Both the position numbers and the translations under genes were made by a program. Positions 26,834 to 60,974 of a DNA stretch of 64,000 nt are shown here, piece after piece (within the stretch, counting starts at the first letter, position 1; every line of letters begins with the position of its first letter). Source of the stretch: Chromatiaceae bacterium (GTDB taxonomy: Bacteria; Pseudomonadota; Gammaproteobacteria; Chromatiales; Chromatiaceae); contig REDK01000159.1 in assembly GCA_007693535.1 (NCBI GenBank), positions 12,047 through 76,046 of the forward strand, in the 5' to 3' direction. The notes beneath the pieces are model-generated. The model was given only the letters and a program-made list of their open reading frames with translations. It was not told where the DNA came from and made no database searches.

Positions 26834-27652
26834 ATGGTGAAGCAAGCAAAGGCGGAACGCACGATCGCTGATTTTGGTGCCCAGTGGGAACGCTTTCCCG
26901 ACAACTCAGGGTTTTATGGGTCAGGCGAACTCTTTGCAGACATCGTCGAACCCTTGTTACCCGCCGCCGAGGTCCAAGGCTTGCAGGTGGCCGAGATTGG
27001 TAGTGGCACGGGGCGCATCGTCGAGATGCTGCTGGGTGCCGGCGCCCGGCACATCACGGCAATCGAGCCATCGAGCGCGATTGCGGCTCTGCGACAGCGT
27101 TTCGCCGACCGCACCGATCGCGTCGCCTGTCATCAGATTGCAGGCGACCGCATCGACCAATTGCGGCCATTCGATCTAATCCTCTCGATCGGCGTGCTTC
27201 ATCATATCCCGGAACCGGAGCCGGTGGTGCGAGCGGCGTTCACGGCACTGCGCCCTGGTGGCCGCCTGCTGATCTGGCTCTACGGCCGCGAGGGCAACGG
27301 ACTCTATCTGGCCGTATTCGGACCGCTACGTCGGCTGACGACCAGGCTGCCGGATGGAGTCCTAGACTTGCTCGTCCGTATCCTCGACCTGCCCTTGGTG
27401 CTCTACATCGCCTTGTGTCGTCATTTGCTGCTGCCATTGCCGCTGCGCGACTACATCCTCAATGTGATTGGTCGCATGGCACCGGACAAGCGCCGCTTGA
27501 TCATTTTTGATCAACTCAACCCTGCGCACGCAAAGTACTATACCCAGGCCGAGGCGCGGCAACTGGTCACCGATGCCGGCTTCATCGATGTCCAGCTACA
27601 CCATCGCCACCGTTACAGTTGGACTGTCATCGGTACCAAGCCGAACGGATGA
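26834..27652 (+). CDS. Class I SAM-dependent methyltransferase
   Basis: Motif I is VAEIGSGTGRIVEMLLGAG. Post-I is ITAIEPS. Motif II-like sequence FDLILSIGVLHHIPEP. Confidence 0.8.
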   Translation: MVKQAKAERTIADFGAQWERFPDNSGFYGSGELFADIVEPLLPAAEVQGLQVAEIGSGTGRIVEMLLGAGARHITAIEPSSAIAALRQRFADRTDRVACHQIAGDRIDQLRPFDLILSIGVLHHIPEPEPVVRAAFTALRPGGRLLIWLYGREGNGLYLAVFGPLRRLTTRLPDGVLDLLVRILDLPLVLYIALCRHLLLPLPLRDYILNVIGRMAPDKRRLIIFDQLNPAHAKYYTQAEARQLVTDAGFIDVQLHHRHRYSWTVIGTKPNG

Positions 27653-27800
27653 GGCCGCAACCTGCCTGCGGGCGCTTGCAGCCGGGATCACAAAGATGCG
27701 CCCGCGAGCCAATGAGGCTTGAGCTGCCCAAGGACCATGTCGCCGCAATGTCGCCAGGATTTCAAATCCAACGGCCAAGGCGGTGCAGCAAGGGGTCGTT

Positions 27801-28604
27801 ATGAACCAGTTGAGCGACACTGACCCGCACGGGGCGGCTCTTGAGCAACTGCCGGCGCACCTGGCACCCTTCAACTGCGTCTGGCATCACCGGTTAATGT
27901 TGGCAGCGGTCGGATTGTATCTGCGCCCACGGGCACGGGTGCTAGACTTCGGCTGCGGCAGCGGCGCCGATGTCTATGCCTATCGCGACAGCGGTTACGA
28001 TGCCTATGGTTTCGACATGGCGGCTGGGCCTGACCTGCGCTGCACCGAGGATCGTCACCTGTTCCGCAGCCTCGCAAGCAGCCAGCCCGGAGACCCGGAT
28101 TACCGCGTGCCCAGAGACTATCGGATGGACTTTCCAGACGGATTCTTCGACTTGGTGGTTTCCAATTCGGTCTTCGAGCATGTCCAGGACCCTGGCCTAG
28201 CCCTACGCGAGATTGCCCGCGTGATGCGACCGGGAGCGGTCTCGATCCATCTCTTTCCGGCGCGGTATCGCCTGATCGAGCCCCACATCCTGGTCCCGCT
28301 GGGCGGCATCTTGAGCAGCCCAGCCTGGTATCGGTTATGGGCCTGGCTCGGCGTGCGCAACCGCTTCCAGCAAGGCCTGTCCGCGACCGAGGTAGTGGCC
28401 GCCAACCTGCGCTATCGCCGAATCGGCATCCATTACCCGCCGGTGCGCCACTTCCTTGAACTTGCCCGGCCTCATTTCGCCGAGGTCCGGCTGGCGCCGG
28501 AGCTTTGGACCCTCGGCAGCCTTCGCCATCCACTAGTCCGGCTCCCAATGGGACGTTGGCTCTATAGCCGCATTGCCACCGTGGTGCTCTGGTTGCGCAA
28601 GTGA
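27801..28604 (+). CDS. Class I SAM-dependent methyltransferase (Methyltransf_11-like)
   Basis: ATG 27801 is preceded by AAGGGG. Motifs: VLDFGCGSGADVYAY and FFDLVVSNSVFEHVQDP. Confidence 0.8.
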   Translation: MNQLSDTDPHGAALEQLPAHLAPFNCVWHHRLMLAAVGLYLRPRARVLDFGCGSGADVYAYRDSGYDAYGFDMAAGPDLRCTEDRHLFRSLASSQPGDPDYRVPRDYRMDFPDGFFDLVVSNSVFEHVQDPGLALREIARVMRPGAVSIHLFPARYRLIEPHILVPLGGILSSPAWYRLWAWLGVRNRFQQGLSATEVVAANLRYRRIGIHYPPVRHFLELARPHFAEVRLAPELWTLGSLRHPLVRLPMGRWLYSRIATVVLWLRK

Positions 28605-28748: not shown

Positions 28749-29945
28749 TCAAGGCACCCAGGGCATTGCTCCGGCCTCCCGGTACCAAGCCGTGGTGAGC
28801 GTCCGCGCAACCGCAGGTCCTTGGACCTGCGGCGTATACTTGCTCAGGGCTGCGGCTGCCGCCGCCTCGGCCATGGCCGGATAATCGTCCAGTTCGGCCA
28901 GCGCGCGCCGCAGGACCCCGAGCCATTCATGGCTGCGGGCCAGGTAGCCGGTCTTACCGTCACTAACCGCACGTCTCAAGGTGAACAAAGGTGACACGAC
29001 GCTAATAGTCCCAACCGCGGCGGCCTCGAAGACCTTGAGTTCGGACTTGCTATTGGTAAAAGAGTTGTCCAGCAGCGGTACGAGATTGATCTCGACCTCG
29101 CCGATCCGTCTTTGTAGCGCGAGAAAACGCTGCATCGGTAACTGTTCTACCCGCTCGGCGAACGGCGCCAACATGGCAGGCAGCGCGATCTGTCCCACCA
29201 GCCGCAGGATGATGCGCTGCTCCGACTCCATTAAAGCCGCAATCGCATCGGCCACGACCGCGAAATCGCGCTGATGCGTTGGCGAACCGCTAAAGTAACC
29301 CAGGTGGACGTGCTGGTCACGTTGGAAGTCCGTGGCCCGCTTGGCTTCCAGTATCCGCGCCGAGTATTCCAGTTGCGCCCCATTCATGAAATTCGGCAAT
29401 ACCGCGACTGGCAGAGCGCAAAAGGCCTGGACCCGCTCGGCCAGGTAGGCGTTCGTGACGATCACCCCGTCGCATAGGCGCAGCAGGGCGCCATAACGGC
29501 CGAAGTCGGCAAACCAATAGTCCATATCGGCCTCTTCAGCGCTATGATCAAGATAATCCAGGATGAGCTGCACATAGCGGTGATCGAAAACCAGATCATC
29601 GATGTCGAACAGCACAGTCTGGCCGCGCATGCGGGCCCTTGCCACCAGAGCGGCCAGTGGTGCAGTGTACTTGCAGTGGCACAGGACGATAACGTCGACC
29701 TGGTCGAGGATCGGCTCGGCGTCGCGCAACTCCGCTGCCGAGAACCAACTCGCAGCCCGGCCCACGCCATTGGCCGCCAGTGCCTCGATCATGTTGAGAA
29801 CCCGATACCGGAAGGTCGCAAGGTTCGGCTTGGGATAGATGTAGGCGACCCGCCATGAACCACGCCGCAGGCATCGCAGTCGCTCCTGCAGCGGCGGGAA
29901 ACACAGCACCCCGCTGCCCGGCTGAGGCAGATCCGCGGTAAACAA
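28749..29945 (-). CDS. GT-B glycosyltransferase (tandem paralogue of 29962..31119)
   Basis: Aligns along its whole length with the upstream paralogue: TFRYRVLNMIEAL, DIDDLVFD, YLAER, HLGYFSG(S/T)PTH(Q/R)RDF, GEVEINLVPL, SELKVFEAA(A/V)VGTISV. The start is uncertain. TTG 29945 matches the paralogue's N-terminus (FTADLP vs FLANLP); the alternative ATG 30011 would overlap the upstream gene by 50 nt. Confidence 0.7.
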   Translation of the reverse strand: MFTADLPQPGSGVLCFPPLQERLRCLRRGSWRVAYIYPKPNLATFRYRVLNMIEALAANGVGRAASWFSAAELRDAEPILDQVDVIVLCHCKYTAPLAALVARARMRGQTVLFDIDDLVFDHRYVQLILDYLDHSAEEADMDYWFADFGRYGALLRLCDGVIVTNAYLAERVQAFCALPVAVLPNFMNGAQLEYSARILEAKRATDFQRDQHVHLGYFSGSPTHQRDFAVVADAIAALMESEQRIILRLVGQIALPAMLAPFAERVEQLPMQRFLALQRRIGEVEINLVPLLDNSFTNSKSELKVFEAAAVGTISVVSPLFTLRRAVSDGKTGYLARSHEWLGVLRRALAELDDYPAMAEAAAAAALSKYTPQVQGPAVARTLTTAWYREAGAMPWVP

Positions 29946-29961
29946 GAAAGCGTCGCCCGCG

Positions 29962-31119
29962 CTAGTCGTACAACGCCTGCAACACCGCAGCACCCTGGGC
30001 TGCCGGCGCATAGCAAGCCAAGGCCTCCGCTGCCGCTGCCTCGGCCATCTGAGGATAGTCGTCAAGCCTGGCGATCGCCTGCGTCAAAACCGGGTACCAG
30101 TTCTGCGCCGTGGCCAAGAAGCCGCTGCTGCCGACGCTGAGCGCCCGTTCGATGGTATAAGTCGGGGTGCCGACACTGATGGTCCCGACCACCGCTGCTT
30201 CGAAGACCTTGAGTTCGGACTTGCAGTTGGTGAAGACGTTATCCTGCAGCGGTACCAGATTGATCTCCACCTCGCCGATCAGGCGTTGGAGGTTCAGGAA
30301 ATCTTGCAATGGGTAGTACTCGATCCGCTGCTGGAACTCGGAAAAGGCCGGCGGCAGCTCCAGGAATCCCACGATGCGCAGCACGATTCGCGCATCGGCC
30401 CGCAGGAGTTGCAACAGGCTATCGACGATTACCGCGAAATCGCGCCGATGGGTGGGGGTGCCGCTGAAGTATCCGAGATGAATCCGGCCATCTCGGACAA
30501 AATCGGCAGCGCGCTTGGCAGCAAGGATGGCGGCCGAGACCTCGATCTGCGCTTGGTTCAGAAAGTTTGGCACCGTCGCGACTGCTAACCCAGAAAACTC
30601 GGCGATGCGTTCGGCCAGGTATGCATTGGTTCCAATCGCCCGGTCGCACAGCCGAAGCAATGCCCCATGGCGTCCAATATCGGCAAACCAGAAATCCAGA
30701 TCGCCCTCGCTGGTGCCCTGATCCAGCGTGTTCAGTACAAAATGGACATAACGGTCATCGAAAACCAAGTCATCGATGTCATAGATGACCGGGATACCGC
30801 GGGCGCCGGCCCGGATGACCAGCTCCGCCAGCCTCGGTGAATAGCGGGCACGGCAAAGCACGAGCCGGTCGGCATGGTTCAGAATCGACTCTGCATATGG
30901 CAGATCGGCATCGCAGAACCAGGCAGCACCGATGGCCTGTTCGCTGGTTACCAGCGCCTCAATCATGTTCAGGACGCGGTACCTGAAGGTGCTGGTATCC
31001 GGGCGGTGGTAGAAATAGGCGACATGGCGATCGCCCGCGGCTAGTTGGGCAAGGCGGTCAGTGAATGGTGTGTGCCAGGGGTCCTGGTATTCGACCCGGG
31101 GCAGGTTGGCCAGGAACAT
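29962..31119 (-). CDS. GT-B glycosyltransferase (tandem paralogue)
   Basis: ATG 31119 (the track uses GTG 31122), immediately after the upstream TGA. Motifs are listed under the paralogue. Confidence 0.75.
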   Translation of the reverse strand: MFLANLPRVEYQDPWHTPFTDRLAQLAAGDRHVAYFYHRPDTSTFRYRVLNMIEALVTSEQAIGAAWFCDADLPYAESILNHADRLVLCRARYSPRLAELVIRAGARGIPVIYDIDDLVFDDRYVHFVLNTLDQGTSEGDLDFWFADIGRHGALLRLCDRAIGTNAYLAERIAEFSGLAVATVPNFLNQAQIEVSAAILAAKRAADFVRDGRIHLGYFSGTPTHRRDFAVIVDSLLQLLRADARIVLRIVGFLELPPAFSEFQQRIEYYPLQDFLNLQRLIGEVEINLVPLQDNVFTNCKSELKVFEAAVVGTISVGTPTYTIERALSVGSSGFLATAQNWYPVLTQAIARLDDYPQMAEAAAAEALACYAPAAQGAAVLQALYD

Positions 31120-31122
31120 CAC

Positions 31123-33786
31123 TCAGACCTTGGCCAGCGTGGTCAGGACCGGCGCCATGGCCGCCTCCCAGTCCCGGGCGATTCCCGCCGACCGATGATT
31201 CTCCTGGCGCCGCGACTCATCCTGCGCCAGGGTGGCGGCCTCCCCCAGTGTGCGTACCAAGTCATCCAGTGCCGGTTCCGCACAGAGGATGTTATCGCAG
31301 TAGCGCGACAGCGGTGGCCGCGCCGGCTGCTGATTGGTCACCACCACCGCCCCACTGGCGGCAAGGTCAAACGGAGGATAGCTAGGATGCGGGGTATATT
31401 GCAGCGAGAGCCCGACATCCACGCGCCGGATCAGCGCGGCATATTCTTTCCAGGATAGCGTCTCCGCCAGCTGCGGACGGATCGCGTGCGGCAATTTGAC
31501 CGGTGGCAGCCCGCGCCCGAGGAAATGGAACTCCCAGGCAGCAGGCGGGAACAAACCGGTCTCGACAGCGGCGGCAATGGCCTCGAGACCGCGCAGGAAG
31601 AGGTTGCGTGGATGATGCGGCCGCGCGTAGAAAAAGAAGGTGCGACAACGGTCGGCCTTGGCGCGCTCTGGGTAGTAGATGGTCGACGGGAAGGCGGGCT
31701 CGAAGGCGGGGCTGGCCGAGGTGATCCCGCGCATCCCGGCGGCGATCAGATGGTCGCGCAGTGCGGTGGTATTGACGATAAAATTCAGGCGCTCATCGCA
31801 GAAGATCTCCTGACATCGCAGTTGCAGGTCGCCCGCGGGATAGAACATGCGCTCGTCTTCCTGCACGAGATACCAGATGCGCGAGGGATCGAGGCTGCGG
31901 CGGGCAGCCCAGGTCGTCCACCAGGAAGTGGTCAGGATCAACTCATCTGTCTGTATTGCCAGCGCCCTGCTATCGACCTCCGTCGGCGCATACTCGAACT
32001 CGATGTTCGCATGATAGGCGATACCATGTGCCTGCAGTACAGTCCCGAGATTGGCAGGCTCCGGTGGGCTGTGCCGGGTCGCGATGCGCAGTCGCAGGCC
32101 AAGGTGTTGGGCCAGCAGAACAGCGAGAATGATTGCCGTGGCAACCCCGCCGAACAGGCTCGTAGCGCCAAGGGTGTCGGTCAGCAGCGTGATCCGACCG
32201 CCGTTGCGCGGGCTGGGATCCGGATAGGTCGCAATCGCGATGAGATTGGGGATCTCGTTGGCTACGACCTCGGCGACCGTCGCCTCAGGGATCTCAGTTT
32301 TTGGTGCGCTTCCCGCTGCCCCAGCCAGGGCGTCGGGAGATAGCTCGGCTGCCGCGCTTGCGATGCGAGCGGGCAGCCTCGGTAAGCCGGCCTCTCCGCG
32401 AGCCGCCCCGATCAGCCGGCGCAGCGGCGCGGTCATGCGCCAGATGGTCGAGGCCACTATGGCGTCGCGTTCTGCCGCGGCGCCGGCCAGGTCATGGACC
32501 TGCTCTGTCATCTCGCCGAGCTGCTCACGCAGGGCCTGTTGCTCTGCCTCGCAGGCTTGCAGTGCCTGGCTCAGGCAAGCGGACTCCTGCCGGCACTCAT
32601 CCAGGCGCTGCGCGGCGACCGCGTTCGCCTGCCCCTGGATGGCTTGAGTCGCCTCGATCCGACGCGCGGCAGTGGCGATCTCCTCCGCCGCATCGGAAAG
32701 GTCGCAGGCCTCCGGCCGCCTTCCACCGAGGCTTGCACGTGGGCCCCCCCGACGCGCCTTCTGATTCTGCCACTGCCTGCTAAGCCTTGCCTTTGCTGCC
32801 TGATGCTGCGGCGACTTACGGAGCGCCGGGGAGGTAGATACCGCTTGCTCCGGCTGGCAAGCGGCCAGGCGGCTTGCCGCCTCAGCGGCACTGCGCTCGG
32901 TTGCCACGATCAAATTCAGGAGCGGACGCAGTGCCTCTAACTCGGCCTCCAATCCCTGTAATGCCCGCGTTGCTTCGGGACCTTCAAGGTCCAGTTCATC
33001 CGCCGCAATCCGCGATAGCCATTCAAAGGCATCGGCAACCAACCCTGGTACCTCGGGGTTCCGGCGCAATTCCTCCGCGGTGAAGTGCGCGTGGCATAGT
33101 GATGCATCCAGGAAGTCGCGCGAGAAGTCCGCCAGGGCGGCCCGGTCGACTCGATCCGCCAACCCGAGCGCCCGCGCCACGCGCTCCAGTTCGGTCTCGG
33201 GTGCGGCCAACAGGCGCTCGTATTGCAAGACCACGCGGCGGGCACCCCGACTGTCGCTCACCGCAGCCAGGCTGTGCTGCAACCACAACAGCAAGCCCTT
33301 ACCGGTCGCGAATCCATGGTGCTGTTTCAGCGAAGCAGCAACGCTGAGCGGATTGCGCAAGGCAATCACATAGGCTGCCTCGAACCCCAACTCTTCGAAT
33401 ACGGCCTGCCAAAAGGGTAGCACCCGCGGCAGGCGCGGATCTTTCATGCCGAAGAGACTGGTGTCTGTCAGCTTGGACCGCAGCAGGACTTCCGCCCGGC
33501 GCCTCAGCGATGTCAAACTCACCTCCCGCAAGCGCTCACCAAGCGCCGGGTCGAGGCTATGCCAGGAGGTCTCCAATCGGGTCAGCAGATCTTCATTGAA
33601 ACGGTAGATGTCCATATCCTCGAAGAAGCCGCGGTCATTGATCCCGGTTCGCGGCGGCATGAGATTTCTACCCAAGTCTACACCCATCACTCGCAAGGCG
33701 GCCGCGATCGCACTGGTGCCGCTGCGATGCATACCCAGCACCACCACAAGGCGTGGCGCGACTGCATTTTTTTGGTTATTCGGCAT
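31123..33786 (-). CDS. Three-part fusion: N-terminal sulfotransferase domain, central coiled-coil, C-terminal WsaF-like GT-B glycosyltransferase
   Basis: The N-terminus has a PAPS-binding 5'-PSB-like loop (VVVLGMHRSGTS) and a 3'-PB-like motif (ALRNPLSVAASL). The central roughly 200 aa are heptad-rich, Ala/Glu/Gln-rich sequence (…LQGLEAELEALRPLL…CEAEQQALREQLGEMTEQVHDL). The C-terminus has WsaF-family marks: LFGGVATAI, TTSWWTTW, YLVQEDERMFYP, FFFYARPHHPRNLF, QYTPHPSYPPFDLAASGAVVVTN. Confidence 0.75.
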   Translation of the reverse strand: MPNNQKNAVAPRLVVVLGMHRSGTSAIAAALRVMGVDLGRNLMPPRTGINDRGFFEDMDIYRFNEDLLTRLETSWHSLDPALGERLREVSLTSLRRRAEVLLRSKLTDTSLFGMKDPRLPRVLPFWQAVFEELGFEAAYVIALRNPLSVAASLKQHHGFATGKGLLLWLQHSLAAVSDSRGARRVVLQYERLLAAPETELERVARALGLADRVDRAALADFSRDFLDASLCHAHFTAEELRRNPEVPGLVADAFEWLSRIAADELDLEGPEATRALQGLEAELEALRPLLNLIVATERSAAEAASRLAACQPEQAVSTSPALRKSPQHQAAKARLSRQWQNQKARRGGPRASLGGRRPEACDLSDAAEEIATAARRIEATQAIQGQANAVAAQRLDECRQESACLSQALQACEAEQQALREQLGEMTEQVHDLAGAAAERDAIVASTIWRMTAPLRRLIGAARGEAGLPRLPARIASAAAELSPDALAGAAGSAPKTEIPEATVAEVVANEIPNLIAIATYPDPSPRNGGRITLLTDTLGATSLFGGVATAIILAVLLAQHLGLRLRIATRHSPPEPANLGTVLQAHGIAYHANIEFEYAPTEVDSRALAIQTDELILTTSWWTTWAARRSLDPSRIWYLVQEDERMFYPAGDLQLRCQEIFCDERLNFIVNTTALRDHLIAAGMRGITSASPAFEPAFPSTIYYPERAKADRCRTFFFYARPHHPRNLFLRGLEAIAAAVETGLFPPAAWEFHFLGRGLPPVKLPHAIRPQLAETLSWKEYAALIRRVDVGLSLQYTPHPSYPPFDLAASGAVVVTNQQPARPPLSRYCDNILCAEPALDDLVRTLGEAATLAQDESRRQENHRSAGIARDWEAAMAPVLTTLAKV

Positions 33787-35188
33787 CACTTAATTCTCTA
33801 TCCAGCGTCACATCACAGACACAATCGAAGTCTACCAATCCGGTTGCTTGATTCCGTTCCTCTGGCAGCACCCTGAAGATGGCTGCGTCCAAGAGCCGGT
33901 GCAGCCAACCATCCTCGCCGTTGAGCATCCCCAACACGCCAGCATTCAGGAAATAGGTTCCTGGATTCAAACGGCAAACAAACCGAAATGCCACCCGACA
34001 GCAGCTGCCGGCCCTGACGACCGCGAGCGCCTCTCCAAACGTCGCCGCCGAGATGCCGCCCCCCAATTCGATCCCGCTCACAGTCTTGATCAGCATTCCG
34101 AACCTGACCACCGTAGCGGTCGCGGTAAAGTTGGCCCGATACGAATAGACATAGGTGCGTCCGCGGACCAGATGATTCACTTGCAGCCCTGACGGCAGAA
34201 AGATGCCGACATCGGCAATCTCGACCTCCCGCGATTCATAGGCGACAGTACTGGCAGGCCGCAGGTTGGGATCAAATGTCTCCCGCCGGTCTTCGGATGG
34301 CCGGGCCAGGCCTGCCGAGGCATCGCCGCGACCCTGCTCGCCTGGCTCGTGCAAAACCGCCAGTCGTACTACCTCGCCGTCCTGATCCCGAATCTGTTGG
34401 CGGATCTCTTCCCGTTGTCCAGGTCCGGCGTACAGCAGACGCTGATAACGTCCGACAATGGTCTTCGGAACCCCGGTCGCAATCCGTTCTCCCTCATCCA
34501 GCAACACGGCCCGATCGCACAGTTCTACGACCGCGCTGCCGGAATGGGAGACAAATAGGATGGTCGCCCCAGCATCGCGCATGCTCTCGATACGAGAAAA
34601 GCATTTACGCTGAAATAATTCATCCCCGACTGCGAGGGCCTCATCGATGATCAGGATGTCAGGATCAACATTGATCGCCACCGCGAAACCCAGCCGAACC
34701 ACCATGCCACTGGAGTAGGTCTTGACCGGCTGCTCGATGAAATCGCCGATATCGGCAAAGGCAGCGATCCTGTCGAAGCGAGCGGCGATCTCGTCGCGCT
34801 CTAGTCCAAGCAGGCTACCATTCAAGAAGACATTATCCCGGCCGGAAAAATCAGGGTTGAAGCCCGTGCCCAGTTCGAGTAGGGCGGCGATCCGGCCACG
34901 GATATCAACGGTACCGACCGTTGGCGTCAGAGTCCCGCAGATCACCTGCAGGAGCGTGGATTTCCCGGAGCCGTTACGCCCGATGATGCCCACCGTCTCG
35001 CCGCGCGAGACATCTAGCGAAACATCGCGCAGGGCCCAGAATTCGCGGTAATAATTGGTCGCAGGCAGGCCCAGCAAACTGCGCAGCCGTGGCATCACTG
35101 ACTGTTTGAGTCGGTCCTGCGGCTGCGCGTAGATCTGATAGCACTTGCCGAGCCCCTGCACTCGTATCGCAAATCCTTCAGACGACAT
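33776..35188 (-). CDS. wzt: O-antigen/glycan ABC exporter ATP-binding protein with C-terminal carbohydrate-binding-type domain
   Basis: Walker A is GRNGSGKST, the signature is YSSGMVVRL and Walker B is ILIIDEAL. An extra C-terminal domain of roughly 200 aa is beta-rich (…GRTYVYSYRANFTATATVVRFGMLIKT…LNPGTYFLNAGV). ATG 35188 lies inside the wzm 3' end (11-nt overlap). Confidence 0.9.
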   Translation of the reverse strand: MSSEGFAIRVQGLGKCYQIYAQPQDRLKQSVMPRLRSLLGLPATNYYREFWALRDVSLDVSRGETVGIIGRNGSGKSTLLQVICGTLTPTVGTVDIRGRIAALLELGTGFNPDFSGRDNVFLNGSLLGLERDEIAARFDRIAAFADIGDFIEQPVKTYSSGMVVRLGFAVAINVDPDILIIDEALAVGDELFQRKCFSRIESMRDAGATILFVSHSGSAVVELCDRAVLLDEGERIATGVPKTIVGRYQRLLYAGPGQREEIRQQIRDQDGEVVRLAVLHEPGEQGRGDASAGLARPSEDRRETFDPNLRPASTVAYESREVEIADVGIFLPSGLQVNHLVRGRTYVYSYRANFTATATVVRFGMLIKTVSGIELGGGISAATFGEALAVVRAGSCCRVAFRFVCRLNPGTYFLNAGVLGMLNGEDGWLHRLLDAAIFRVLPEERNQATGLVDFDCVCDVTLDRELSDAE

Positions 35189-36008
35189 CGGCAAACCCCT
35201 TGCGGGTCTTCTGGAACCACCAGAACCCGACCTTGGCGACCGCCAGGCTCAAGAGCGAGTAAAGGAACCAACCCGGCCAATTCGGGACTTGACCGAACAG
35301 CAAGACCTTGCGCCCCTCCTCGATGACAAAGGTCAGTGGATTGAGGTACAGCAGGAGCTGCAGCTTGGGTGATAGGACGCTGACCGGATAAAAGATCGGC
35401 GCCATGAACAGCATGATGGTGGTAATGATGCCGATGGTCTGGGCAACGTCCCTGATATAGACACCAAGGGCGGCCAGAAACCAGCCGACACCCGTGGTCG
35501 CGATCACCAGCGGCGCGACGAGTAGTGGAAAAAAGACCAAGGTCCAGGACAACGAGCCGGTGAGCAGATATTGTGCCAACAGCAGCACTGAGAGACTGAT
35601 CAGGGCATGGAACAAGGCTGCACCCATCGCGACAACTGGTAGGATCTCCAGCGGGAATACCACGCGTTTGACGTAGCTGACGTTATGGACGATGAGCAGC
35701 GGTGCACGATTGGCAACCTCGGCGAACAGCGCGTGGATGATCATGCCGACGAATAGCACGATGGCAAAGCTGACATGGTCGTCGGCGACTCCGCCTCCCC
35801 AGCGGTTGCGAAAGACCACCGAGAAGACAAAGGTATAGACCAGTAACATCAGGATCGGATTGAAGAAGGACCAGGCCAGGCCCAGGATCGAGCCGCGATA
35901 GCGGGCGGCGATCTCACGGCGGACCAGTTGCCTGACCAGACCATGATGAGCGCGACCGGTGGCCAGCATGGCGCTGAAGCTAGTGGGATGATCTTGATGG
36001 GGGTTCAT
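35178..36008 (-). CDS. wzm: ABC-2 type polysaccharide exporter permease
   Basis: 276 aa with 6 TM helices. N-terminus is …LVRQLVRREIAARYRGSILGLAWSFFNPILML, typical of Wzm/TagG. ATGA overlap with the upstream GT. Confidence 0.9.
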   Translation of the reverse strand: MNPHQDHPTSFSAMLATGRAHHGLVRQLVRREIAARYRGSILGLAWSFFNPILMLLVYTFVFSVVFRNRWGGGVADDHVSFAIVLFVGMIIHALFAEVANRAPLLIVHNVSYVKRVVFPLEILPVVAMGAALFHALISLSVLLLAQYLLTGSLSWTLVFFPLLVAPLVIATTGVGWFLAALGVYIRDVAQTIGIITTIMLFMAPIFYPVSVLSPKLQLLLYLNPLTFVIEEGRKVLLFGQVPNWPGWFLYSLLSLAVAKVGFWWFQKTRKGFADVV

Positions 36009-38107
36009 GAGTCAGGCGCAGCCGACCAGAGCTTGGCCGTTGCACTGGTGCTGACGACCGCATAAGCAGCAATTGTTTCATCGATCATTCGCGCCATGCC
36101 AAACTGCTCGGCGACGAAGCGCGGGCCGGCCTGGCCCAGTCGGCGACGGCGGTCCGCGTCATCCAGCAAACGCACCACGGTCGTGGCGATCGGGTCAGGA
36201 TCGGACTCAGTAAGATACAGGCCGGTCTCGCCATCGGCCATGGACTCGGCAGTGCCGCCACCGCCGCAGGCAACGACCGGCACGCCCAAGGCCTGTGCCT
36301 CCAGCAGCACGTTCGGTGTCCCTTCCCATGCGGAGGTCAACAGCAGCAGATCGCAGGCGGCAAGCGCCAGCCGGGCGTCGGCTGTTGGTGCCATCAGCCG
36401 CACGCGCCCGGACTCTGGGAATGAGTGGATACGCGCATTCAGCGCTTCCGCTAGCGGGCCTTGACCATAGAGGCAGCCGTGAGTACCGGCCCGGGCAGCG
36501 AGCACGCGCGCCACGACCTCCAGCCAGAGCAGCGGCCGCTTCTCCTCTGACAGCCGGAACATGCCGCCAATTACCAGGGCCGCGGCCGGGAATCCGAGTG
36601 CATGGCGATGGGCGGCAATCGCCGCCTGGGCGGGTCGAGTGATGGCCGCGTGATCGACGCCGTTGCGGATGACGCCGATCTCCCGAGGCGGTAAGCCCAG
36701 CCAAGCCGCATAGTCGGCTGCACCGGCCCGGCTGTTATTGATGAACACCGTCTGCGGCGATCCCAACAGCGCCTGGTAGGCCGGCCGATACCAAGGCTGA
36801 TAGATATAGTCGAAATGGATCGGGCTGACATTGCGCCCGGATAGGATCAGCCGCGGAACCCCGGCAAGCACCGCCGCGAGACCAGCGCGAACATTGCTGT
36901 AATCCAGCCAGGCGTGAACGATCGCCGGACGCAGCGCATGGATCGCGAGATAGAGATTAGTGATCTCCTGTTGCAGATCGGCAGGCAATCCACGCAGTAC
37001 CCGCGCCAGGCGCCGCAGCAAGGCCTTGACTGCTGGATCAATCGCATCCCGCCAAGCGTCGATGCTGCTGGCCGGGCCGCCGAGTTCGCGCACCTCGATC
37101 CCGGCGGCGACCAGCTGATGGTAAAAGAAGTCGTTCCCCGGCCGACCCCGTAGATTGCTGACCAGGATGGTCAGATCGGCGATGCCCTGTTGTCGCAGAC
37201 CCAGTGCAGTATTGACGATCTGCCGCTCGGCACCGCCGGCGCAGAGGGTAGGACAGACGAACAGGATGCGGGCGTGTACGATCTGCTGGAGCGGGATGCG
37301 CAGTGCGGCGGTGGCATCGCCGAGGAGTCGTGCGAAACGACGCCGCTGATGCGTCTCGACATAGCGCAGATAGCGCTCGGCACCGAGCAGCACCTGTGCC
37401 CCGGCATCGGCGCCGCGGACACCGCGGGCGGGCAGCGACTGCACGAAGGATAGCACCTTGTATCCAGCGAGCAGGAGCAACGGGCGGCGATGCCAATCAT
37501 CGACGCGCCAGCAGGTCAGGTTGAGAAATCCGCGGGTCAGCGCGATGCGGATCATGCGCGCGGTCAGTCCGGCGCAATCGCCGATATAGAGCAGATCGCG
37601 GGCGCCGCGACGCGCTGGCACTTGCCACGTGTAGTCCGCCCGCTGGAACTGACCGAGGCGTCCCTCCATGGCACCCAGCGCGAGCCCCGGCGGTGGCGCC
37701 TGGTCCAGGACCAGGGCGGTGACGGCAGGATGCGCCAACAGACTGGCGATAGCAGGCTCGGGGAGCACAAAGGGGACCGCTAGCACGACTTGGTCGATGG
37801 CGCGCTTTTGACACCAGGCGAGCGCTGCTTGGACGCGCGGGTCGTCAACGGCGGGTGGCTTTAGTGGCTGATCGGTCGGTGGCCGCAAGCTGGTATCCGC
37901 ATCGGGCGCTGGGGCAGGCGCGCGACGAACTGGCTGTTTCAGGACAGGCTCCTGTTGCACGCGGCCATCCGCAAACAGCCTCCGGAAGGGCGGCGGAAGG
38001 CCGGACAGGTTGGCATGACGGACCCTGAGGGGCGACAGTCCGGGCAACAGGTGCCAAGGCAAAATCGGATTCGGGCAGCAAGACCCCAGACGGCAGCGCC
38101 GGGGCAA
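36005..38107 (-). CDS. GT4-family glycosyltransferase with an uncharacterised N-terminal extension of about 300 aa
   Basis: The C-terminal half has ILFVCPTLCAGGAERQIVNTALGL and WEGTPNVLLEAQALGVPVVACGGGGTAE. The start is uncertain: the track start is TTG 38107 and GTG 37960 is an alternative. Confidence 0.75.
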   Translation of the reverse strand: MPRRCRLGSCCPNPILPWHLLPGLSPLRVRHANLSGLPPPFRRLFADGRVQQEPVLKQPVRRAPAPAPDADTSLRPPTDQPLKPPAVDDPRVQAALAWCQKRAIDQVVLAVPFVLPEPAIASLLAHPAVTALVLDQAPPPGLALGAMEGRLGQFQRADYTWQVPARRGARDLLYIGDCAGLTARMIRIALTRGFLNLTCWRVDDWHRRPLLLLAGYKVLSFVQSLPARGVRGADAGAQVLLGAERYLRYVETHQRRRFARLLGDATAALRIPLQQIVHARILFVCPTLCAGGAERQIVNTALGLRQQGIADLTILVSNLRGRPGNDFFYHQLVAAGIEVRELGGPASSIDAWRDAIDPAVKALLRRLARVLRGLPADLQQEITNLYLAIHALRPAIVHAWLDYSNVRAGLAAVLAGVPRLILSGRNVSPIHFDYIYQPWYRPAYQALLGSPQTVFINNSRAGAADYAAWLGLPPREIGVIRNGVDHAAITRPAQAAIAAHRHALGFPAAALVIGGMFRLSEEKRPLLWLEVVARVLAARAGTHGCLYGQGPLAEALNARIHSFPESGRVRLMAPTADARLALAACDLLLLTSAWEGTPNVLLEAQALGVPVVACGGGGTAESMADGETGLYLTESDPDPIATTVVRLLDDADRRRRLGQAGPRFVAEQFGMARMIDETIAAYAVVSTSATAKLWSAAPDS

Positions 38108-38364
38108 GTGTGGCAGTATACCTTAGTTTCGCTGTGTGCTCTTTGGCATCAAGGCTGCCGCTGCGTCAGGGTTGCCCGGACCGGACCTTTGGGACACTGG
38201 TTGGCCGCGCGCCACGGTTCGGCGTTGGTTGTTCGAGCTGCATACGCGACCGATCGCACCGACGGTTTACTCTTGGCGGCCTGGGCCTGTCGCGTCTGAT
38301 CGCCTGTCCGGCCAAGCGCCCGGCGTCCCGTTGCCGACTGTCGGCGAGTCTGAGGAAGTCAACG

Positions 38365-40257
38365 ATGTGCGGTATCGCCGGACTGCTGTGCTGGCAACAA
38401 ACAGCCGATCGGACGATCGTCCAGGCGATGATCGATCGCCAGATTCACCGCGGACCCGACGCCGGCGGCATCGAGGCCCTCGGTCCATTGGTGCTGGGGC
38501 ACCGGCGGCTGGCGATCATCGATGTCACCCCGGAGAACGACCAACCGCTGTGCGATCGGCAGGGCGACCTCACCATCGTCTTCAATGGCGAGATCTACAA
38601 CTTTCGCGAGCTGCGTGCCGAACTGCAGGCGGCCGGCGCACTGTTTCGTACCCGCGGCGATACCGAGGTGATTCTGGAGGCCTATCGCGCCTGGGGCACG
38701 GGCTGCCTGGAGCGCTTCAACGGCATGTTTGCGTTCGCCCTGTGGGATGCCCGTGAGCAGCAATTGTTCCTGGCGCGCGATCGAGTTGGCGAGAAGCCCC
38801 TGTTCTATGCCCAGCTCGCCGATGCTGGCCTGGCCTTCGCATCGGAGCCGCGGGCATTGCGTGCGCACCCAGCGGTCGGCGGGACTGTCGATCCGATTGG
38901 TCTCGCGCATTATTTGACGCTCAATTATAGCATCGGCGAGCACAGCCTATTGGCTGGGGTCCGTCGCTTACCCCCTGGGCATTATCTCATTGCCCGCCGG
39001 GGTCATCCCCCGCGAGAATATCGTTACTGGGATCTGGCGGCCTGTTTTCGTGCCAAACGCCGGTTTGCATCGATCCAGGCCGCCGCCGAGGAACTAACCG
39101 ACCTGATCGACGACGCGGTGCGCATGCGCCTGGTCAGCGACGTTCCGTTGGGGGCCTTCCTCAGCGGTGGAGTCGACTCTTCCGCGGTCGCCGCGGCTAT
39201 GGCCAAGGCAGTCCCAGCCGAGCAGGTGCAGACCTTCAGCGTCGGCTTTGGTGTGCCGACCTTCGACGAGGTGGAGACCGCCAGGGCGGTTGCCGATCAT
39301 CTGGGTCTCGATCATCAGGATCGCATCGTTGCTGCCGATGCCCCGACGCTGATCCAGGCATTGATCGCCGCCGCGGACGAACCCCTGGCCGATACCTCAG
39401 TCTTGCCGACGTGGCGATTGGCCGCCTTTGCCCGCGAACAGGTCAGCGTCGTGCTTTCCGGTGACGGTGCCGACGAGTGCTTTGCCGGCTACGAGACCTA
39501 CCTCGCAGACCGTCTCCACCAGACGCTGCGCTGGCTCCCCGCCGGGGCTGCCAGCGGCCTGTTCAGGCTGGCCGATCGGCTGCTGCCGGTGCGCTTCTCG
39601 AAGGTCAGCCTCGACTACAAGCTGCGCCGCTTCCTGGCCGAACTGCACCGCCCCCTGCCGCGCGCCCATGCCGCCTGGCGCGACATCTTTTCGGCACACG
39701 ACCGCCTGGCGCTGGTCCAGCCGCAATGGCAGGCATTATTCGCGGAGCCCGAGGCCGATCCCTTCGCGCAGTTCGCCCCCCATTACGCCGAAGTGGCCGA
39801 TTGCCATTGGCTCGATCAAGTCAGCTACGTAGACATCAAGACCTGGCTCGCCGACGACATCCTAGTCAAGGTCGATCGCACCACCATGGCCCATTCCCTA
39901 GAGGCCCGTGCACCGCTGCTCGATCACCGCTTGGTGGAATTCGCGGCAGCACTGCCGGTCGATTGGCGGCTGCGCGGCCTGCGCACCAAGCATATCCTGA
40001 AACACAGCCAGCGCCAACGTCTGCCGCGGTGGGTACTGAACGGTAGAAAACGCGGATTCAATGCGCCCGTCACCCATTGGTTGAGCGGACCGCTGCGGGA
40101 ATTCGCCGGGGATACCCTGGCGCTGCCGCGATTGCATGAATGGGTTCGTCCCGAGGCGATCGTCAGGCTGTGGGCCGAGCAGGACGCTGGTCGCCGGGAT
40201 CATGGCCTCAAACTCTTCGGGTTGCTCTGTCTGGCGCTGTGGCTCGATACACTGTGA
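38365..40257 (+). CDS. Asparagine synthase-type glutamine amidotransferase (AsnB family), copy 3
   Basis: ATG 38365 is preceded by GAGGAAG (38352-58). The protein starts MCGIAGLL. PP-loop is SGGVDSS. The 85-codon upstream extension in the track was rejected. Confidence 0.9.
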   Translation: MCGIAGLLCWQQTADRTIVQAMIDRQIHRGPDAGGIEALGPLVLGHRRLAIIDVTPENDQPLCDRQGDLTIVFNGEIYNFRELRAELQAAGALFRTRGDTEVILEAYRAWGTGCLERFNGMFAFALWDAREQQLFLARDRVGEKPLFYAQLADAGLAFASEPRALRAHPAVGGTVDPIGLAHYLTLNYSIGEHSLLAGVRRLPPGHYLIARRGHPPREYRYWDLAACFRAKRRFASIQAAAEELTDLIDDAVRMRLVSDVPLGAFLSGGVDSSAVAAAMAKAVPAEQVQTFSVGFGVPTFDEVETARAVADHLGLDHQDRIVAADAPTLIQALIAAADEPLADTSVLPTWRLAAFAREQVSVVLSGDGADECFAGYETYLADRLHQTLRWLPAGAASGLFRLADRLLPVRFSKVSLDYKLRRFLAELHRPLPRAHAAWRDIFSAHDRLALVQPQWQALFAEPEADPFAQFAPHYAEVADCHWLDQVSYVDIKTWLADDILVKVDRTTMAHSLEARAPLLDHRLVEFAAALPVDWRLRGLRTKHILKHSQRQRLPRWVLNGRKRGFNAPVTHWLSGPLREFAGDTLALPRLHEWVRPEAIVRLWAEQDAGRRDHGLKLFGLLCLALWLDTL

Positions 40258-52979: not shown

Positions 52980-52995
52980 CCCCGGCGCTGACGGG

Positions 52996-60971: not shown

Positions 60972-60974
60972 TCC

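What the first reader, a model, noticed from the sequence alone, without database searches (positions are those of the whole stretch)
31123..35188. Sulfotransferase / coiled-coil / WsaF-like GT fusion next to a Wzt with a carbohydrate-binding-type domain: candidate sulfate-capping chain terminator and molecular ruler
In ABC-transporter-dependent O-antigen pathways, chain length is set by a terminator enzyme held at a fixed distance from the polymerase by a coiled-coil. Known examples are WbdD in E. coli O9a and WbbB in the Klebsiella O12 type. The Wzt C-terminal domain then recognises the terminal cap.

Here one 887-aa protein joins three parts: a PAPS-type sulfotransferase domain (GMHRSGTS, RNPLSVAAS), a coiled-coil-like segment of about 200 aa, and a WsaF-type glycosyltransferase. 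It is translationally overlapped with a two-domain Wzt and with Wzm. Known caps are methyl, methyl-phosphate or Kdo. A sulfate cap with this architecture would be a new variant as far as I know.
Basis: partly seen in the sequence, partly recalled or inferred. Interest (0 to 1): 0.65.

Follow-up and report, generated by a model that had tools for sequence, protein, structure and literature searches.

The report
Candidate sulfate-capping O-antigen chain terminator
One large enzyme joins a sulfate-adding domain, a long helical spacer and a sugar-adding domain, and it sits next to an exporter whose sugar-binding domain almost always travels with such sulfate enzymes, so it probably caps finished surface-sugar chains with sulfate to set their length and permit export; nobody has tested this.

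Summary
On the minus strand, wzm (35178-36008), wzt with a Wzt_C domain (33776-35194) and an 888-aa gene (31123-33789) overlap by 11-17 nt.

The 888-aa protein has three parts:
- an N-terminal PAPS-type sulfotransferase fold (aa 10-265, pLDDT 92);
- a helical spacer of about 200 aa, including an 89-residue single helix;
- a WsaF-like GT-B glycosyltransferase.

- The sulfotransferase module is N-terminal in 108 of 113 relatives. A heptad-periodic spacer of variable length (73-598 aa) follows it, and then very different glycosyltransferase sets.
- I picked 72 metagenome loci only by similarity to this Wzt's binding domain. In 64 the sulfotransferase gene lies directly downstream of wzt, and one more carries a different sulfotransferase family there.
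- APS kinase genes lie in 18 of 160 related loci.

So this is a WbbB/WbdD-style terminator-ruler-polymerase in which the cap chemistry is most likely sulfation.

Nothing is shown biochemically. The helical spacer here is less canonical than in most relatives. I could not read the 2019 Mann/Kimber/Whitfield census, which may already list such candidates. Verdict: a new variant of a known kind, worth experimental follow-up.

The parts
35178..36008 (-). wzm, the ABC-2 permease of the glycan exporter (276 aa)
   Evidence: Pfam ABC2_membrane, E 4.5e-25. Its stop overlaps the wzt start.
33776..35194 (-). wzt, the ATP-binding subunit carrying a C-terminal carbohydrate-binding module (472 aa from TTG 35194; an ATG lies at 35188)
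   Evidence: Pfam ABC_tran plus Wzt_C. The nucleotide-binding domain matches Aquifex aeolicus Wzt 8dku at E 1e-69, but only over aa 9-255.
33830..34243 (-). Wzt C-terminal carbohydrate-binding module (aa 318-455), a conserved subtype linked to sulfotransferases
   Evidence: Pfam Wzt_C, E 9e-25. It is 37-61% identical to the modules of about 19 Wzt proteins next to sulfotransferase genes in distant phyla. In the reciprocal scan, 64 of 72 loci have the sulfotransferase directly downstream. phmmer finds no match to the solved Wzt binding domains.
31123..33789 (-). 888-aa three-part protein: sulfotransferase, helical spacer and WsaF-like glycosyltransferase
   Evidence: A 69%-identical ortholog (P0002) sits in a syntenic cluster.
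32995..33762 (-). N-terminal PAPS-type sulfotransferase domain (aa 10-265)
   Evidence: AlphaFold2 pLDDT is 92. The best Foldseek PDB matches are TPST2, the CurM and OLS sulfotransferase domains, Stf1 and cytosolic SULTs. Family-invariant residues are H21, R22, G24, T25, S26, E57, K116, D117, R145, P147 and S153. There are 2816 cluster representatives at E<=1e-30.
33712..33735 (-). 5'-phosphosulfate-binding loop GMHRSGTS (aa 19-26)
   Evidence: H21, R22, G24, T25 and S26 are invariant in 113 relatives. The RSGT(S/T) form is the one known in TPST and bacterial sulfotransferases (established knowledge).
33331..33357 (-). 3'-phosphate-binding motif RNPLSVAAS (aa 145-153)
   Evidence: R145, P147 and S153 are invariant. 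The family profile aligns this motif onto RNPKDVAVS of human SULT1A3 and RHPYSVIES of the CurM sulfotransferase.
32395..32994 (-). Helical spacer, the candidate molecular ruler (aa 266-465), including the single 89-residue helix 364-452 (32434-32700)
   Evidence: AlphaFold2 secondary structure. The family profile of this region matches coiled-coil proteins in the PDB.
32419..32442 (-). Conserved WRMTAPLR motif at the C-terminal end of the spacer (aa 450-457)
   Evidence: The pattern W[RK]..P[LIVMF]R is found after the spacer in 100 of 247 relatives and is visible in the consensus. Its function is unknown.
31126..32202 (-). C-terminal WsaF-like GT-B glycosyltransferase (aa 530-888), the presumed polymerase component
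   Evidence: Pfam WsaF_C E 1.4e-42 and WsaF_N E 8.8e-6. phmmer against PDB WsaF 2x0d gives E 6e-23 over aa 504-850. Foldseek's top hit is WsaF 2x0e at E 9e-13.
29962..31122 (-). GT4-like glycosyltransferase (386 aa) that abuts the stop codon of the 888-aa gene
   Evidence: Weak Glyco_trans_1_4 hit. It is conserved downstream of the orthologs P0002 and P0005.
28749..30065 (-). Tandem paralog of the previous glycosyltransferase; the true start is probably internal, giving about 398 aa
   Evidence: 56% identity over 383 aa to the 386-aa neighbour. The ortholog in L001 is 398 aa.
36005..38107 (-). TviE-like GT4 glycosyltransferase, the first gene of the operon; its start is uncertain
   Evidence: Pfam Glycos_transf_1 and Glyco_transf_4. 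NCBIfam TviE-like at E 9e-58, below that model's cut-off.

Best explanation
The operon GT4 - wzm - wzt - (sulfotransferase/spacer/WsaF-like GT) - GT - GT encodes an ABC-transporter-dependent surface-glycan pathway, most likely for an O-antigen. The pathway follows the polymerase-terminator design of WbbB (Klebsiella O12) and ORF6 (Klebsiella O7).

Proposed mechanism:
1. The C-terminal WsaF-like glycosyltransferase and the neighbouring glycosyltransferases extend the lipid-linked chain at the membrane.
2. The helical spacer, probably oligomeric, holds the N-terminal PAPS-dependent sulfotransferase at a fixed distance from them.
3. A chain long enough to reach that domain is sulfated on its non-reducing end.
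4. Sulfation stops extension and creates the epitope that the Wzt C-terminal module must bind before Wzm/Wzt exports the chain.

Shown here: the domain architecture, the folds, the PAPS-binding motifs, the tight gene coupling, and the family-wide linkage of this binding-module subtype with sulfotransferases and with APS kinase genes.

Inferred: the sulfotransfer activity, the terminal position of the sulfate, recognition of the cap by Wzt, the ruler function, and the nature of the glycan.
For: Architecture. Pfam, PDB sequence and fold matches give the order sulfotransferase, long helix, GT-B.

Sulfotransferase identity.
- The 5'-PSB and 3'-PB motifs are invariant in 113 relatives.
- RNPLSVAAS aligns on SULT1A3 RNPKDVAVS.
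- Of the 25 Foldseek matches with E <= 0.001, 18 are PAPS sulfotransferases and a PAP-binding relative; the other 7 are a kinase domain.

PAPS supply. Adenylyl-sulfate kinase genes lie within the flanks of 13 of 80 genome loci and 5 of 80 metagenome loci of the family. Four of these were verified with NCBIfam.

Terminator-like layout.
- The module is N-terminal in 108 of 113 relatives.
- A low-proline, heptad-periodic spacer of 73-598 aa follows it.
- The C-terminal modules are interchangeable: GT2, GT4, RgpF, WbsX or WsaF.
- A stand-alone sulfotransferase-plus-coiled-coil protein, in the WbdD-like format, occurs in a Dyella rml-wzm-wzt cluster.

Coupling to the exporter.
- 64 of 72 loci chosen only by similarity to the Wzt binding module carry the sulfotransferase gene directly downstream, with a median gap of 2 nt.
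- One of the 8 exceptions has a different sulfotransferase family (PF00685) in that position.
- 66 cassettes fall into 48 clusters at 70% identity. The binding module is more conserved than the sulfotransferase (median pairwise identity 53% against 43%). The two co-vary, with Spearman 0.61 and 0 of 500 Mantel permutations reaching that value.
- 7 of the 8 genome loci closest to the window's N-domain have the wzm-wzt-sulfotransferase order.

The framework of the known systems is taken from PMC11231755.
Against: - There is no biochemical evidence for any member of the family.
- The Pfam sulfotransferase hit is marginal: 28.1 bits against a cut-off of 27.
- The window's spacer is interrupted by a Pro/Gly/Arg-rich, low-confidence stretch at aa 348-362. 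Its heptad signal (2.9 and 1.3) is weaker than the family median of 4.8.
- The window (64 kb) holds no APS kinase gene.
- Among loci chosen by the sulfotransferase domain, only 18 of 73 have this type of Wzt within 10 kb. Several have a Wzt without a binding module. The sulfotransferase family is therefore not restricted to exporter-coupled termination.
- The linkage shows co-inheritance. It does not show that the sulfate is terminal rather than internal.
- The cassette loci are related by descent, so the 64 of 72 count is not a set of independent events.
Confidence: 0.65

Rival explanations
1. The sulfotransferase decorates internal residues of the polymer, as in the sulfated exopolysaccharides of cyanobacteria or the LPS and K-antigen sulfation of rhizobia. 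The helical region would then only scaffold a biosynthetic complex. The Wzt module would recognise a sulfated repeat, or something unrelated to sulfate, and chain length would be set in another way.
For: - Known bacterial carbohydrate sulfotransferases (NodH, KpsS, LpsS, Stf0, the synechan enzymes) modify non-terminal or small substrates.
- Most loci chosen by the sulfotransferase domain lack a Wzt of this type within 10 kb, 55 of 73.
- Some relatives are short proteins without a spacer.
Against: - The fixed N-terminal position, separated from the glycosyltransferases by a variable heptad spacer, matches the layout of proven terminators.
- The Wzt module subtype is conserved (median 53%) while the polymerising glycosyltransferases differ completely. 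That pattern fits a common small epitope better than different repeat units.
- In all characterised systems a Wzt binding module reads a terminal cap (PMC11231755).
Confidence: 0.2
2. The N-terminal domain is not a sulfotransferase. It would be a related P-loop enzyme, for example a kinase that adds a phosphate cap as in WbdD chemistry, or a catalytically dead binding domain.
For: - Sulfotransferases and nucleotide or sugar kinases share a fold.
- Foldseek also lists the PFKFB3 kinase domain at E 2e-4.
- The Pfam score is marginal, and sequence matches to PDB sulfotransferases are weak, E 0.03-1.6.
Against: - The loop is HRSGTS, without the GK[ST] lysine of kinases.
- The R-x7-S 3'-phosphate motif, specific to PAP(S) binding, is invariant and aligns on SULT1A3.
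- Sulfotransferase matches have higher TM-scores (0.45-0.58) than kinase matches (0.35-0.38).
- 15 of the 17 weak PDB sequence matches are sulfotransferases.
- APS kinase genes are enriched in the family's loci.
Confidence: 0.05
3. The mechanism is as proposed, but the product is not an LPS O-antigen. It would be another ABC-exported glycan, such as a capsule-like polymer, an S-layer glycan or a secondary cell-wall polymer.
For: - WsaF itself comes from a Gram-positive S-layer glycan pathway.
- The family occurs in Paenibacillus and Paludifilum.
- The 64-kb window is crowded with further glycosyltransferases and three AsnB-like amidotransferases, so more than one polymer may be encoded.
- No WaaL ligase or lipid A/core gene was identified.
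Against: The nearest cassettes are in Gram-negative genera (Lamprocystis, Pseudomonas, Massilia, Azorhizophilus). In those bacteria, wzm plus a wzt with a binding module is the classic O-antigen format.
Confidence: 0.1

Closest known systems
WbbB of Klebsiella pneumoniae O12 / Raoultella terrigena (single-protein polymerase-terminator-ruler)
   Same: One polypeptide carries an N-terminal terminator module, a coiled-coil spacer and C-terminal polymerising glycosyltransferase(s). It is encoded next to wzm and a wzt that has a C-terminal binding module. Only capped chains are exported (PMC11231755).
   Different: WbbB's terminator is a GT99 beta-Kdo transferase that uses CMP-Kdo. Here it is a PAPS-type sulfotransferase fold with no sequence relation. 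WbbB has two C-terminal glycosyltransferase modules; here there is one WsaF-like GT-B plus separate glycosyltransferases. The Wzt binding module is not detectably similar by phmmer to the solved ones.
WbdD of E. coli O9a/O8 (Klebsiella O3/O5) and ORF6 of Klebsiella O7 (kinase/methyltransferase terminators)
   Same: A small non-sugar group caps the non-reducing end (phosphate-methyl or methyl). The catalytic domains sit at the far end of a coiled-coil ruler. ORF6(O7) also carries polymerase glycosyltransferases, including a rhamnosyltransferase, after the coil. The stand-alone sulfotransferase-plus-coil protein of Dyella mirrors the WbdD format.
   Different: The donor would be PAPS rather than ATP and SAM, and the product a sulfate ester. 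There is no kinase or methyltransferase domain in the protein. Two separate methyltransferase genes lie nearby at 26834-27652 and 27783-28604.
WsaF of Geobacillus stearothermophilus (dTDP-beta-L-rhamnose rhamnosyltransferase of the S-layer glycan pathway; PDB 2x0d/2x0e/2x0f)
   Same: The C-terminal 360 aa match WsaF_N plus WsaF_C, align to WsaF over aa 504-850 (E 6e-23), and give WsaF as the top fold match.
   Different: Identity is only about 22%. WsaF is a free-standing enzyme, not fused to a coil or a terminator. No rml genes were found in the window, so the donor sugar is unknown.
Bacterial carbohydrate sulfotransferases NodH, KpsS, LpsS and Stf0 (Sulfotransfer_3 / Sulfotransfer_1)
   Same: PAPS-type fold with an R-x-G type 5'-PSB loop. 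NodH is also detected by PF13469 (PMC11625862). Some loci carry a dedicated APS kinase, which recalls NodPQ.
   Different: Those enzymes are single-domain, act on lipo-chitooligosaccharides, K-antigen, LPS or trehalose, and are not linked to a coiled coil, a fused glycosyltransferase or a Wzt binding module.

Membership tests
PAPS-dependent sulfotransferase superfamily (Pfam Sulfotransfer_3, PF13469) | 5'-phosphosulfate-binding loop ((K/R)xGT(T/S) type) at the end of the first beta-strand | tested here: met
   GMHRSGTS lies at aa 19-26, after strand 13-18 in the model. H21, R22, G24, T25 and S26 are invariant in 113 relatives.
PAPS-dependent sulfotransferase superfamily (Pfam Sulfotransfer_3, PF13469) | 3'-phosphate-binding motif R-x7-S | tested here: met
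   R145 and S153 are invariant. The profile aligns RNPLSVAxS on RNPKDVAVS of SULT1A3 and RHPYSVIES of the CurM sulfotransferase.
PAPS-dependent sulfotransferase superfamily (Pfam Sulfotransfer_3, PF13469) | Sulfotransferase fold and family-model score above threshold | tested here: met
   PF13469 scores 28.1 bits against a cut-off of 27, which is marginal. The AlphaFold2 model has pLDDT 92. The top Foldseek PDB matches are TPST2, CurM/OLS sulfotransferase and Stf1, with TM-scores of 0.45-0.58.
PAPS-dependent sulfotransferase superfamily (Pfam Sulfotransfer_3, PF13469) | PAPS-dependent sulfuryl transfer to an acceptor | not testable with these tools
   Support is indirect only: APS kinase genes occur in 18 of 160 related loci, and none occurs in the window.
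Polymerase-terminator-ruler systems of ABC-dependent glycans (WbdD / WbbB / ORF6-O7 type) | Terminator catalytic module at the end of the coiled coil distal from the polymerase | tested here: met
   The sulfotransferase is at aa 10-265, the spacer at 266-465 and the glycosyltransferase at 530-888. The module is N-terminal in 108 of 113 relatives.
Polymerase-terminator-ruler systems of ABC-dependent glycans (WbdD / WbbB / ORF6-O7 type) | Extended coiled coil | tested here: inconclusive
   The window has an 89-residue single helix (364-452) with a heptad power ratio of 2.9, preceded by weaker helices and a disordered break. At family level the feature is clearly met: the profile matches coiled-coil proteins, median heptad power is 4.8 and proline is 1%. 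The oligomeric state was not modelled.
Polymerase-terminator-ruler systems of ABC-dependent glycans (WbdD / WbbB / ORF6-O7 type) | Polymerising glycosyltransferase(s) fused to, or recruited by, the C-terminal end of the coiled-coil protein | tested here: met
   A WsaF-like GT-B is fused at the C-terminus. Relatives carry GT2, GT4, RgpF or WbsX modules in that position.
Polymerase-terminator-ruler systems of ABC-dependent glycans (WbdD / WbbB / ORF6-O7 type) | Wzt with a C-terminal carbohydrate-binding module encoded in the same cluster | tested here: met
   Wzt_C at aa 318-455, E 9e-25, in the gene immediately upstream and overlapping.
Polymerase-terminator-ruler systems of ABC-dependent glycans (WbdD / WbbB / ORF6-O7 type) | The cap is terminal, stops polymerisation and is required for export through binding to the Wzt module | not testable with these tools
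   Only a genomic proxy is available. The binding-module subtype predicts an adjacent sulfotransferase in 64 of 72 loci, plus 1 with another sulfotransferase family. The two domains also co-vary.
Polymerase-terminator-ruler systems of ABC-dependent glycans (WbdD / WbbB / ORF6-O7 type) | Coiled-coil length sets the modal chain length | not testable with these tools
   Spacer length varies from 73 to 598 aa across relatives. That is compatible with a ruler but is not a test of it.
WsaF-family GT-B glycosyltransferases | WsaF_N and WsaF_C domains with a GT-B fold | tested here: met
   WsaF_C scores 145 bits. WsaF_N scores 26.3 bits, just under the 27-bit cut-off. PDB 2x0d matches at E 6e-23, and Foldseek gives 2x0e at E 9e-13.
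WsaF-family GT-B glycosyltransferases | dTDP-beta-L-rhamnose as donor | not tested
   No rmlABCD genes were seen among the ORFs scanned in the window. Donor-binding residues were not compared. The related Dyella cluster does carry rml genes.

The most novel reading that the evidence does not exclude
Sulfation may be a widespread chain-terminating cap for ABC-exported glycans in environmental bacteria, perhaps one of the commonest. It would be written by a portable cassette, wzm - wzt (with a sulfate-cap-reading module) - sulfotransferase/coiled coil, that plugs into unrelated polymerase glycosyltransferase sets.

The Wzt module of this cassette would be the first carbohydrate-binding module of an exporter specialised for a sulfated terminus. 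A single sulfate per chain would also explain why structural studies of O-antigens have not reported it. One such case is the unexplained sulfotransferase-domain gene between wzt and wbbB in Aeromonas salmonicida (PMC4483657).
Probability: 0.45. Interest if true: 0.75.

Novelty: new variant of a known kind. Interest (0 to 1): 0.62.

Why it matters
Chain-length control by capping is a textbook mechanism, but it rests on very few chemistries: methyl, phospho-methyl and Kdo. All were worked out in enteric bacteria.

This window points to a further chemistry, sulfation. The same sulfotransferase module occurs in at least 588 species genomes, and relatives of this Wzt's binding module occur on 484 or more metagenome stretches. 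These span Proteobacteria, Desulfobacterota, Bacteroidota, Nitrospirota and Firmicutes.

If confirmed, three things would follow:
- a new class of bacterial carbohydrate sulfotransferases, of which few are characterised;
- a new specificity for the exporter's binding module;
- a modular cap-and-reader pair that could be used in glycoengineering to set the chain length of recombinant polysaccharides.

It would also mean that many O-antigens carry an overlooked negative charge at their outermost tip. That charge would be relevant to phage and tailocin recognition and to surface chemistry in alkaline, saline habitats such as the soda lake this contig comes from.

Tried and rejected
Literature.
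- Mann, Kimber & Whitfield 2019 (Glycobiology 29:822) and the 2020 JBC O-antigen review were not held under DOI, PubMed id or a guessed PMC id. I therefore could not check whether sulfotransferase terminators were already listed.
- Ten full-text searches found no open paper that links sulfotransferases with WbdD/WbbB-type termination or that describes a sulfate-capped O-antigen.

Technical dead ends.
- The first alignment (113 sequences) was too large for structure prediction, so I reduced it to 70.
- The fold search with the full-length model returned only GT-B matches. The N-domain had to be modelled separately.
- The 18-sequence alignment of the binding module had no stretch conserved enough for a collection scan. 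An 8-sequence subset worked.
- Looking up the window's own protein P0001 gave no contig.

Leads that failed.
- In L142, an ORF two genes downstream of wzt has an HLPKTAGSS motif that looked like another sulfotransferase, but it has no Pfam or NCBIfam hit. I do not count it.
- The ABC transporter at 60189-62791, which I suspected to import sulfate, is modABC for molybdate.
- Promoter and terminator scans of the operon gave nothing above the shuffled background.
- I did not pursue the taxonomy of the host, because the contig is from an uncultured soda-lake organism.

Considered and rejected.
- The 285-aa plus-strand ORF 31486-32343 inside the gene is not a gene. It is an antisense ORF in high-GC DNA with no support.

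Full report
WHAT IS THERE

On the minus strand lies a tightly packed operon. It reads:
- a TviE-like GT4 glycosyltransferase (36005-38107);
- wzm (35178-36008);
- wzt (33776-35194);
- an 888-aa gene (31123-33789; 887 aa from the ATG at 33786);
- two tandem paralogous GT4-like glycosyltransferases (29962-31122 and 28749-30065), which are 56% identical.

The wzt stop lies inside the start of the 888-aa gene, and the wzm stop lies inside the wzt start. The overlaps are 11-17 nt.

Pfam finds ABC2_membrane in Wzm and ABC_tran plus Wzt_C (aa 318-455, E 9e-25) in Wzt. In the large protein it finds:
- Sulfotransfer_3 (aa 15-211, 28.1 bits against a cut-off of 27);
- WsaF_N (aa 532-651, 26.3 bits, just under the 27-bit cut-off);
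- WsaF_C (aa 716-848, 145 bits).

One correction is needed. The '200-aa coiled coil' is a 200-aa helical spacer. AlphaFold2 shows helices 271-348, a low-confidence Pro/Gly/Arg-rich break at 348-362, and then one 89-residue helix at 364-452 (pLDDT about 80) plus a short helix at 454-464. A disordered linker (465-527) follows, and then the GT-B domain. The heptad (3.5-residue) hydrophobic periodicity is moderate in 364-452 (power ratio 2.9) and weak in 270-348 (1.3).

THE THREE MODULES

The C-terminal module aligns to the rhamnosyltransferase WsaF over aa 504-850 (phmmer against the PDB, E 6e-23). WsaF is also the best fold match (E 9e-13). Identity is only about 22%. I found no rml genes among the ORFs scanned in the window, so the donor sugar is open.

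The N-terminal module, modelled alone, is very confident (pLDDT 92). Its best structural matches are PAPS-dependent sulfotransferases: TPST1/2, the CurM and OLS sulfotransferase domains, Stf1 and cytosolic SULTs, with TM-scores of 0.45-0.58. The PFKFB kinase domain appears with lower TM-scores of 0.35-0.38.

In 113 relatives the invariant residues are H21, R22, G24, T25, S26, N51, G54, E57, K116, D117, W127, R145, P147 and S153. A profile of the domain aligns RNPLSVAxS onto RNPKDVAVS of human SULT1A3 and RHPYSVIES of the CurM sulfotransferase. From established SULT structures, that motif is the Arg/Ser pair that holds the 3'-phosphate of PAPS. I therefore regard 'PAPS-type sulfotransferase' as well supported, although no activity has been tested.

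THE FAMILY

The N-terminal module is abundant. There are 2816 cluster representatives at E<=1e-30 and 13,538 at E<=1e-10. At least 588 species-representative genomes carry it, from Pseudomonas, Massilia, Azospirillum and Acidithiobacillus to Desulfovibrio, Bacteroidales, Nitrospirae and Paenibacillus.

It is N-terminal in 108 of 113 homologs. Proteins of 500-1900 aa follow this module with quite different catalytic sets: GT2, GT4, RgpF, WbsX, WsaF or methyltransferases. Only P0002 (69% identical, in a syntenic cluster) and P0005 share the window's exact architecture.

Between the sulfotransferase and a conserved WRxTxPLR motif (present in 100 of 247 members) lies a spacer of 73-598 aa, median 143. 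The spacer has about 1% proline and strong heptad periodicity, with a median power ratio of 4.8. The family profile of this region hits coiled-coil proteins in the PDB.

A stand-alone version, sulfotransferase plus coil and 516 aa long, sits in an rmlABCD-wzm-wzt(Wzt_C) cluster of Dyella jiangningensis.

This is the layout of the proven terminators: the catalytic cap-adding module at the distal end of a coiled coil, with polymerase glycosyltransferases fused (WbbB, ORF6-O7) or recruited (WbdD) at the other end (PMC11231755).

COUPLING TO THE EXPORTER

This is the key new result. Wzt proteins next to these sulfotransferases in distant phyla have C-terminal modules 37-61% identical to the window's. 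[quoted passage not shown]

I then ran the test in the reverse direction. I scanned the metagenome collection with an alignment of the binding module alone, which gave 484 or more relatives, of which 80 loci were kept.
- 72 of the 80 loci have at least 500 nt downstream of wzt.
- In 64 of those, an ORF with the sulfotransferase N-domain lies immediately downstream on the same strand. The median gap is 2 nt and the range is -49 to +433.
- One of the 8 exceptions (L139) has a different sulfotransferase family there (PF00685, E 3e-10).

The 66 cassettes with both domains complete are diverse, forming 48 clusters at 70% identity. Median pairwise identities are 53% for the binding module, 43% for the sulfotransferase and 72% for the nucleotide-binding domain. 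Identities of the binding module and the sulfotransferase co-vary, with Spearman 0.61 and 0 of 500 Mantel permutations reaching that value.

The relation is asymmetric. Among loci chosen by the sulfotransferase, only 18 of 73 have this Wzt type within 10 kb, although 7 of the 8 closest to the window do. So the sulfotransferase/coil module has other contexts too, whereas this binding-module subtype very rarely occurs without a sulfotransferase.

PAPS SUPPLY

Adenylyl-sulfate kinase genes lie in the flanks of 13 of 80 genome loci and 5 of 80 metagenome loci. Four were verified with NCBIfam, including one CysN/C fusion.

A genome usually has at most one such gene. A 20-kb neighbourhood should therefore hold it well under 1% of the time (my estimate). 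The enrichment is independent support for PAPS use. The window itself has no such gene.

MOST LIKELY MECHANISM (inference; confidence about 0.65)

1. The glycosyltransferases polymerise the lipid-linked chain at the membrane.
2. The spacer holds the sulfotransferase away from them. The 89-residue helix would span about 13 nm, and the whole spacer up to about 25 nm if it is fully extended.
3. A chain that reaches the domain is sulfated at its non-reducing end. This blocks extension and creates the epitope read by the Wzt module, which licenses export.

RIVALS

- Internal decoration rather than capping (about 0.2).
- A non-sulfotransferase P-loop enzyme (about 0.05).
- The same mechanism acting on a glycan other than O-antigen (about 0.1).

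The genomic data show linkage. They do not show the position of the sulfate.

COMPARISON AND NOVELTY

The protein works like WbbB or ORF6-O7 but shares no terminator homology with them. The glycosyltransferase is WsaF-like. The sulfotransferase is a distant relative of NodH-type enzymes.

None of my ten full-text searches of the open literature turned up a paper that connects sulfotransferases with this mechanism or reports a sulfate-capped O-antigen. A 2024 review of polysaccharide sulfotransferases mentions only a handful of bacterial enzymes.

The 2019 census by Mann, Kimber and Whitfield, which 'predicted new chemistries' (quoted from my memory of the abstract), could not be read. It may already list PF13469 terminators, and I cannot exclude that. 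To my knowledge no member has been characterised.

A literature hint: the Aeromonas salmonicida O-antigen cluster has an unexplained sulfotransferase-domain ORF between wzt and wbbB, and no sulfate was seen in the polymer (PMC4483657). One terminal sulfate per chain would be easy to miss in such an analysis (inference).

VERDICT

This is a real feature, correctly read by the first stage. It is best classed as a new variant of a known kind. Interest is 0.62, because it makes a widespread and untested cap chemistry, together with its reader domain, directly testable.

Noticed in passing
L080:15970-17814 (+) and 17836-18339 (+) (Paenibacillus sp. NPDC058174): A Wzt/TagH-like ATP-binding domain is fused to a TPR and a Sulfotransfer_1 domain (614 aa) in place of a binding module. 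An APS kinase gene follows directly, and a 1023-aa sulfotransferase/coil/GT protein lies about 3 kb upstream. An exporter subunit that carries its own sulfotransferase seems undescribed.
   Followed up: partly
L139:3669-4604 (+): In a locus with the same Wzt binding-module subtype, the gene directly downstream of wzt is a Sulfotransfer_1 (PF00685) protein, not the family found elsewhere. A methyltransferase follows it. This suggests the link is to sulfation rather than to one protein family.
   Followed up: partly
window 32419-32442 (-), aa 450-457, and relatives: A short conserved motif, (S)xxWRxTxPLR, marks the C-terminal end of the coiled-coil spacer in 100 of 247 family members. Its role is unknown; membrane contact or glycosyltransferase docking are possibilities.
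   Followed up: partly
window 14906-17680 (-), 19280-21238 (-), 38110-40257 (+): Three AsnB-like glutamine amidotransferase/asparagine synthase paralogs lie in one polysaccharide region. The ORF at 14906-17680 has an N-terminal extension of about 300 aa. They may amidate uronic acids in the glycan(s), which is an inference.
   Followed up: no
window about 8000-42000 versus the flanks: G+C is 59-67% across most of the glycan gene region (about 8-14 kb and 20-42 kb) but 70-75% in the 14-20 kb stretch within it and in the 42-64 kb flank. The lower G+C fits horizontally acquired polysaccharide loci.
   Followed up: no
window 42358-46011 (-), 47455-50502 (+), 50499-52979 (+), 52372-55839 (+): Very long ORFs (826-1217 aa) in the 70-75% G+C flank have no Pfam hit. 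They could be real unknown proteins or artefactual ORFs of high-GC DNA.
   Followed up: no
window 26834-27652 (+) and 27783-28604 (+): Two class-I SAM methyltransferase genes lie just beyond the operon, and they are conserved in the syntenic locus L001. The glycan may be O-methylated as well. A methyl cap added in trans is an untested alternative for termination.
   Followed up: no
window 9125-10138 (-) and 25757-26815 (+): Two membrane proteins of the LPG_synthase_TM family are embedded among glycosyltransferases. Their function in glycan clusters is unclear.
   Followed up: no
window 60189-62791 (+): This is a modABC molybdate transporter. I first suspected a sulfate importer. It is unrelated to the finding.
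   Followed up: yes
whole window: The stretch 31123-35188 is held completely by a soda-lake metagenome run and partly by other soda-lake and lake-water runs. It was not recovered among the 185,579 species-representative genomes scanned with the N-domain, where the best match is 47% identical. The host is therefore probably uncultured.
   Followed up: partly
literature: Aeromonas salmonicida wb(salmo) cluster, ORF19: A 216-aa sulfotransferase-domain ORF lies between wzt and wbbB, and the authors could not explain it because no sulfate was found in the O-antigen (PMC4483657). It is worth re-examining for a terminal sulfate.
   Followed up: no
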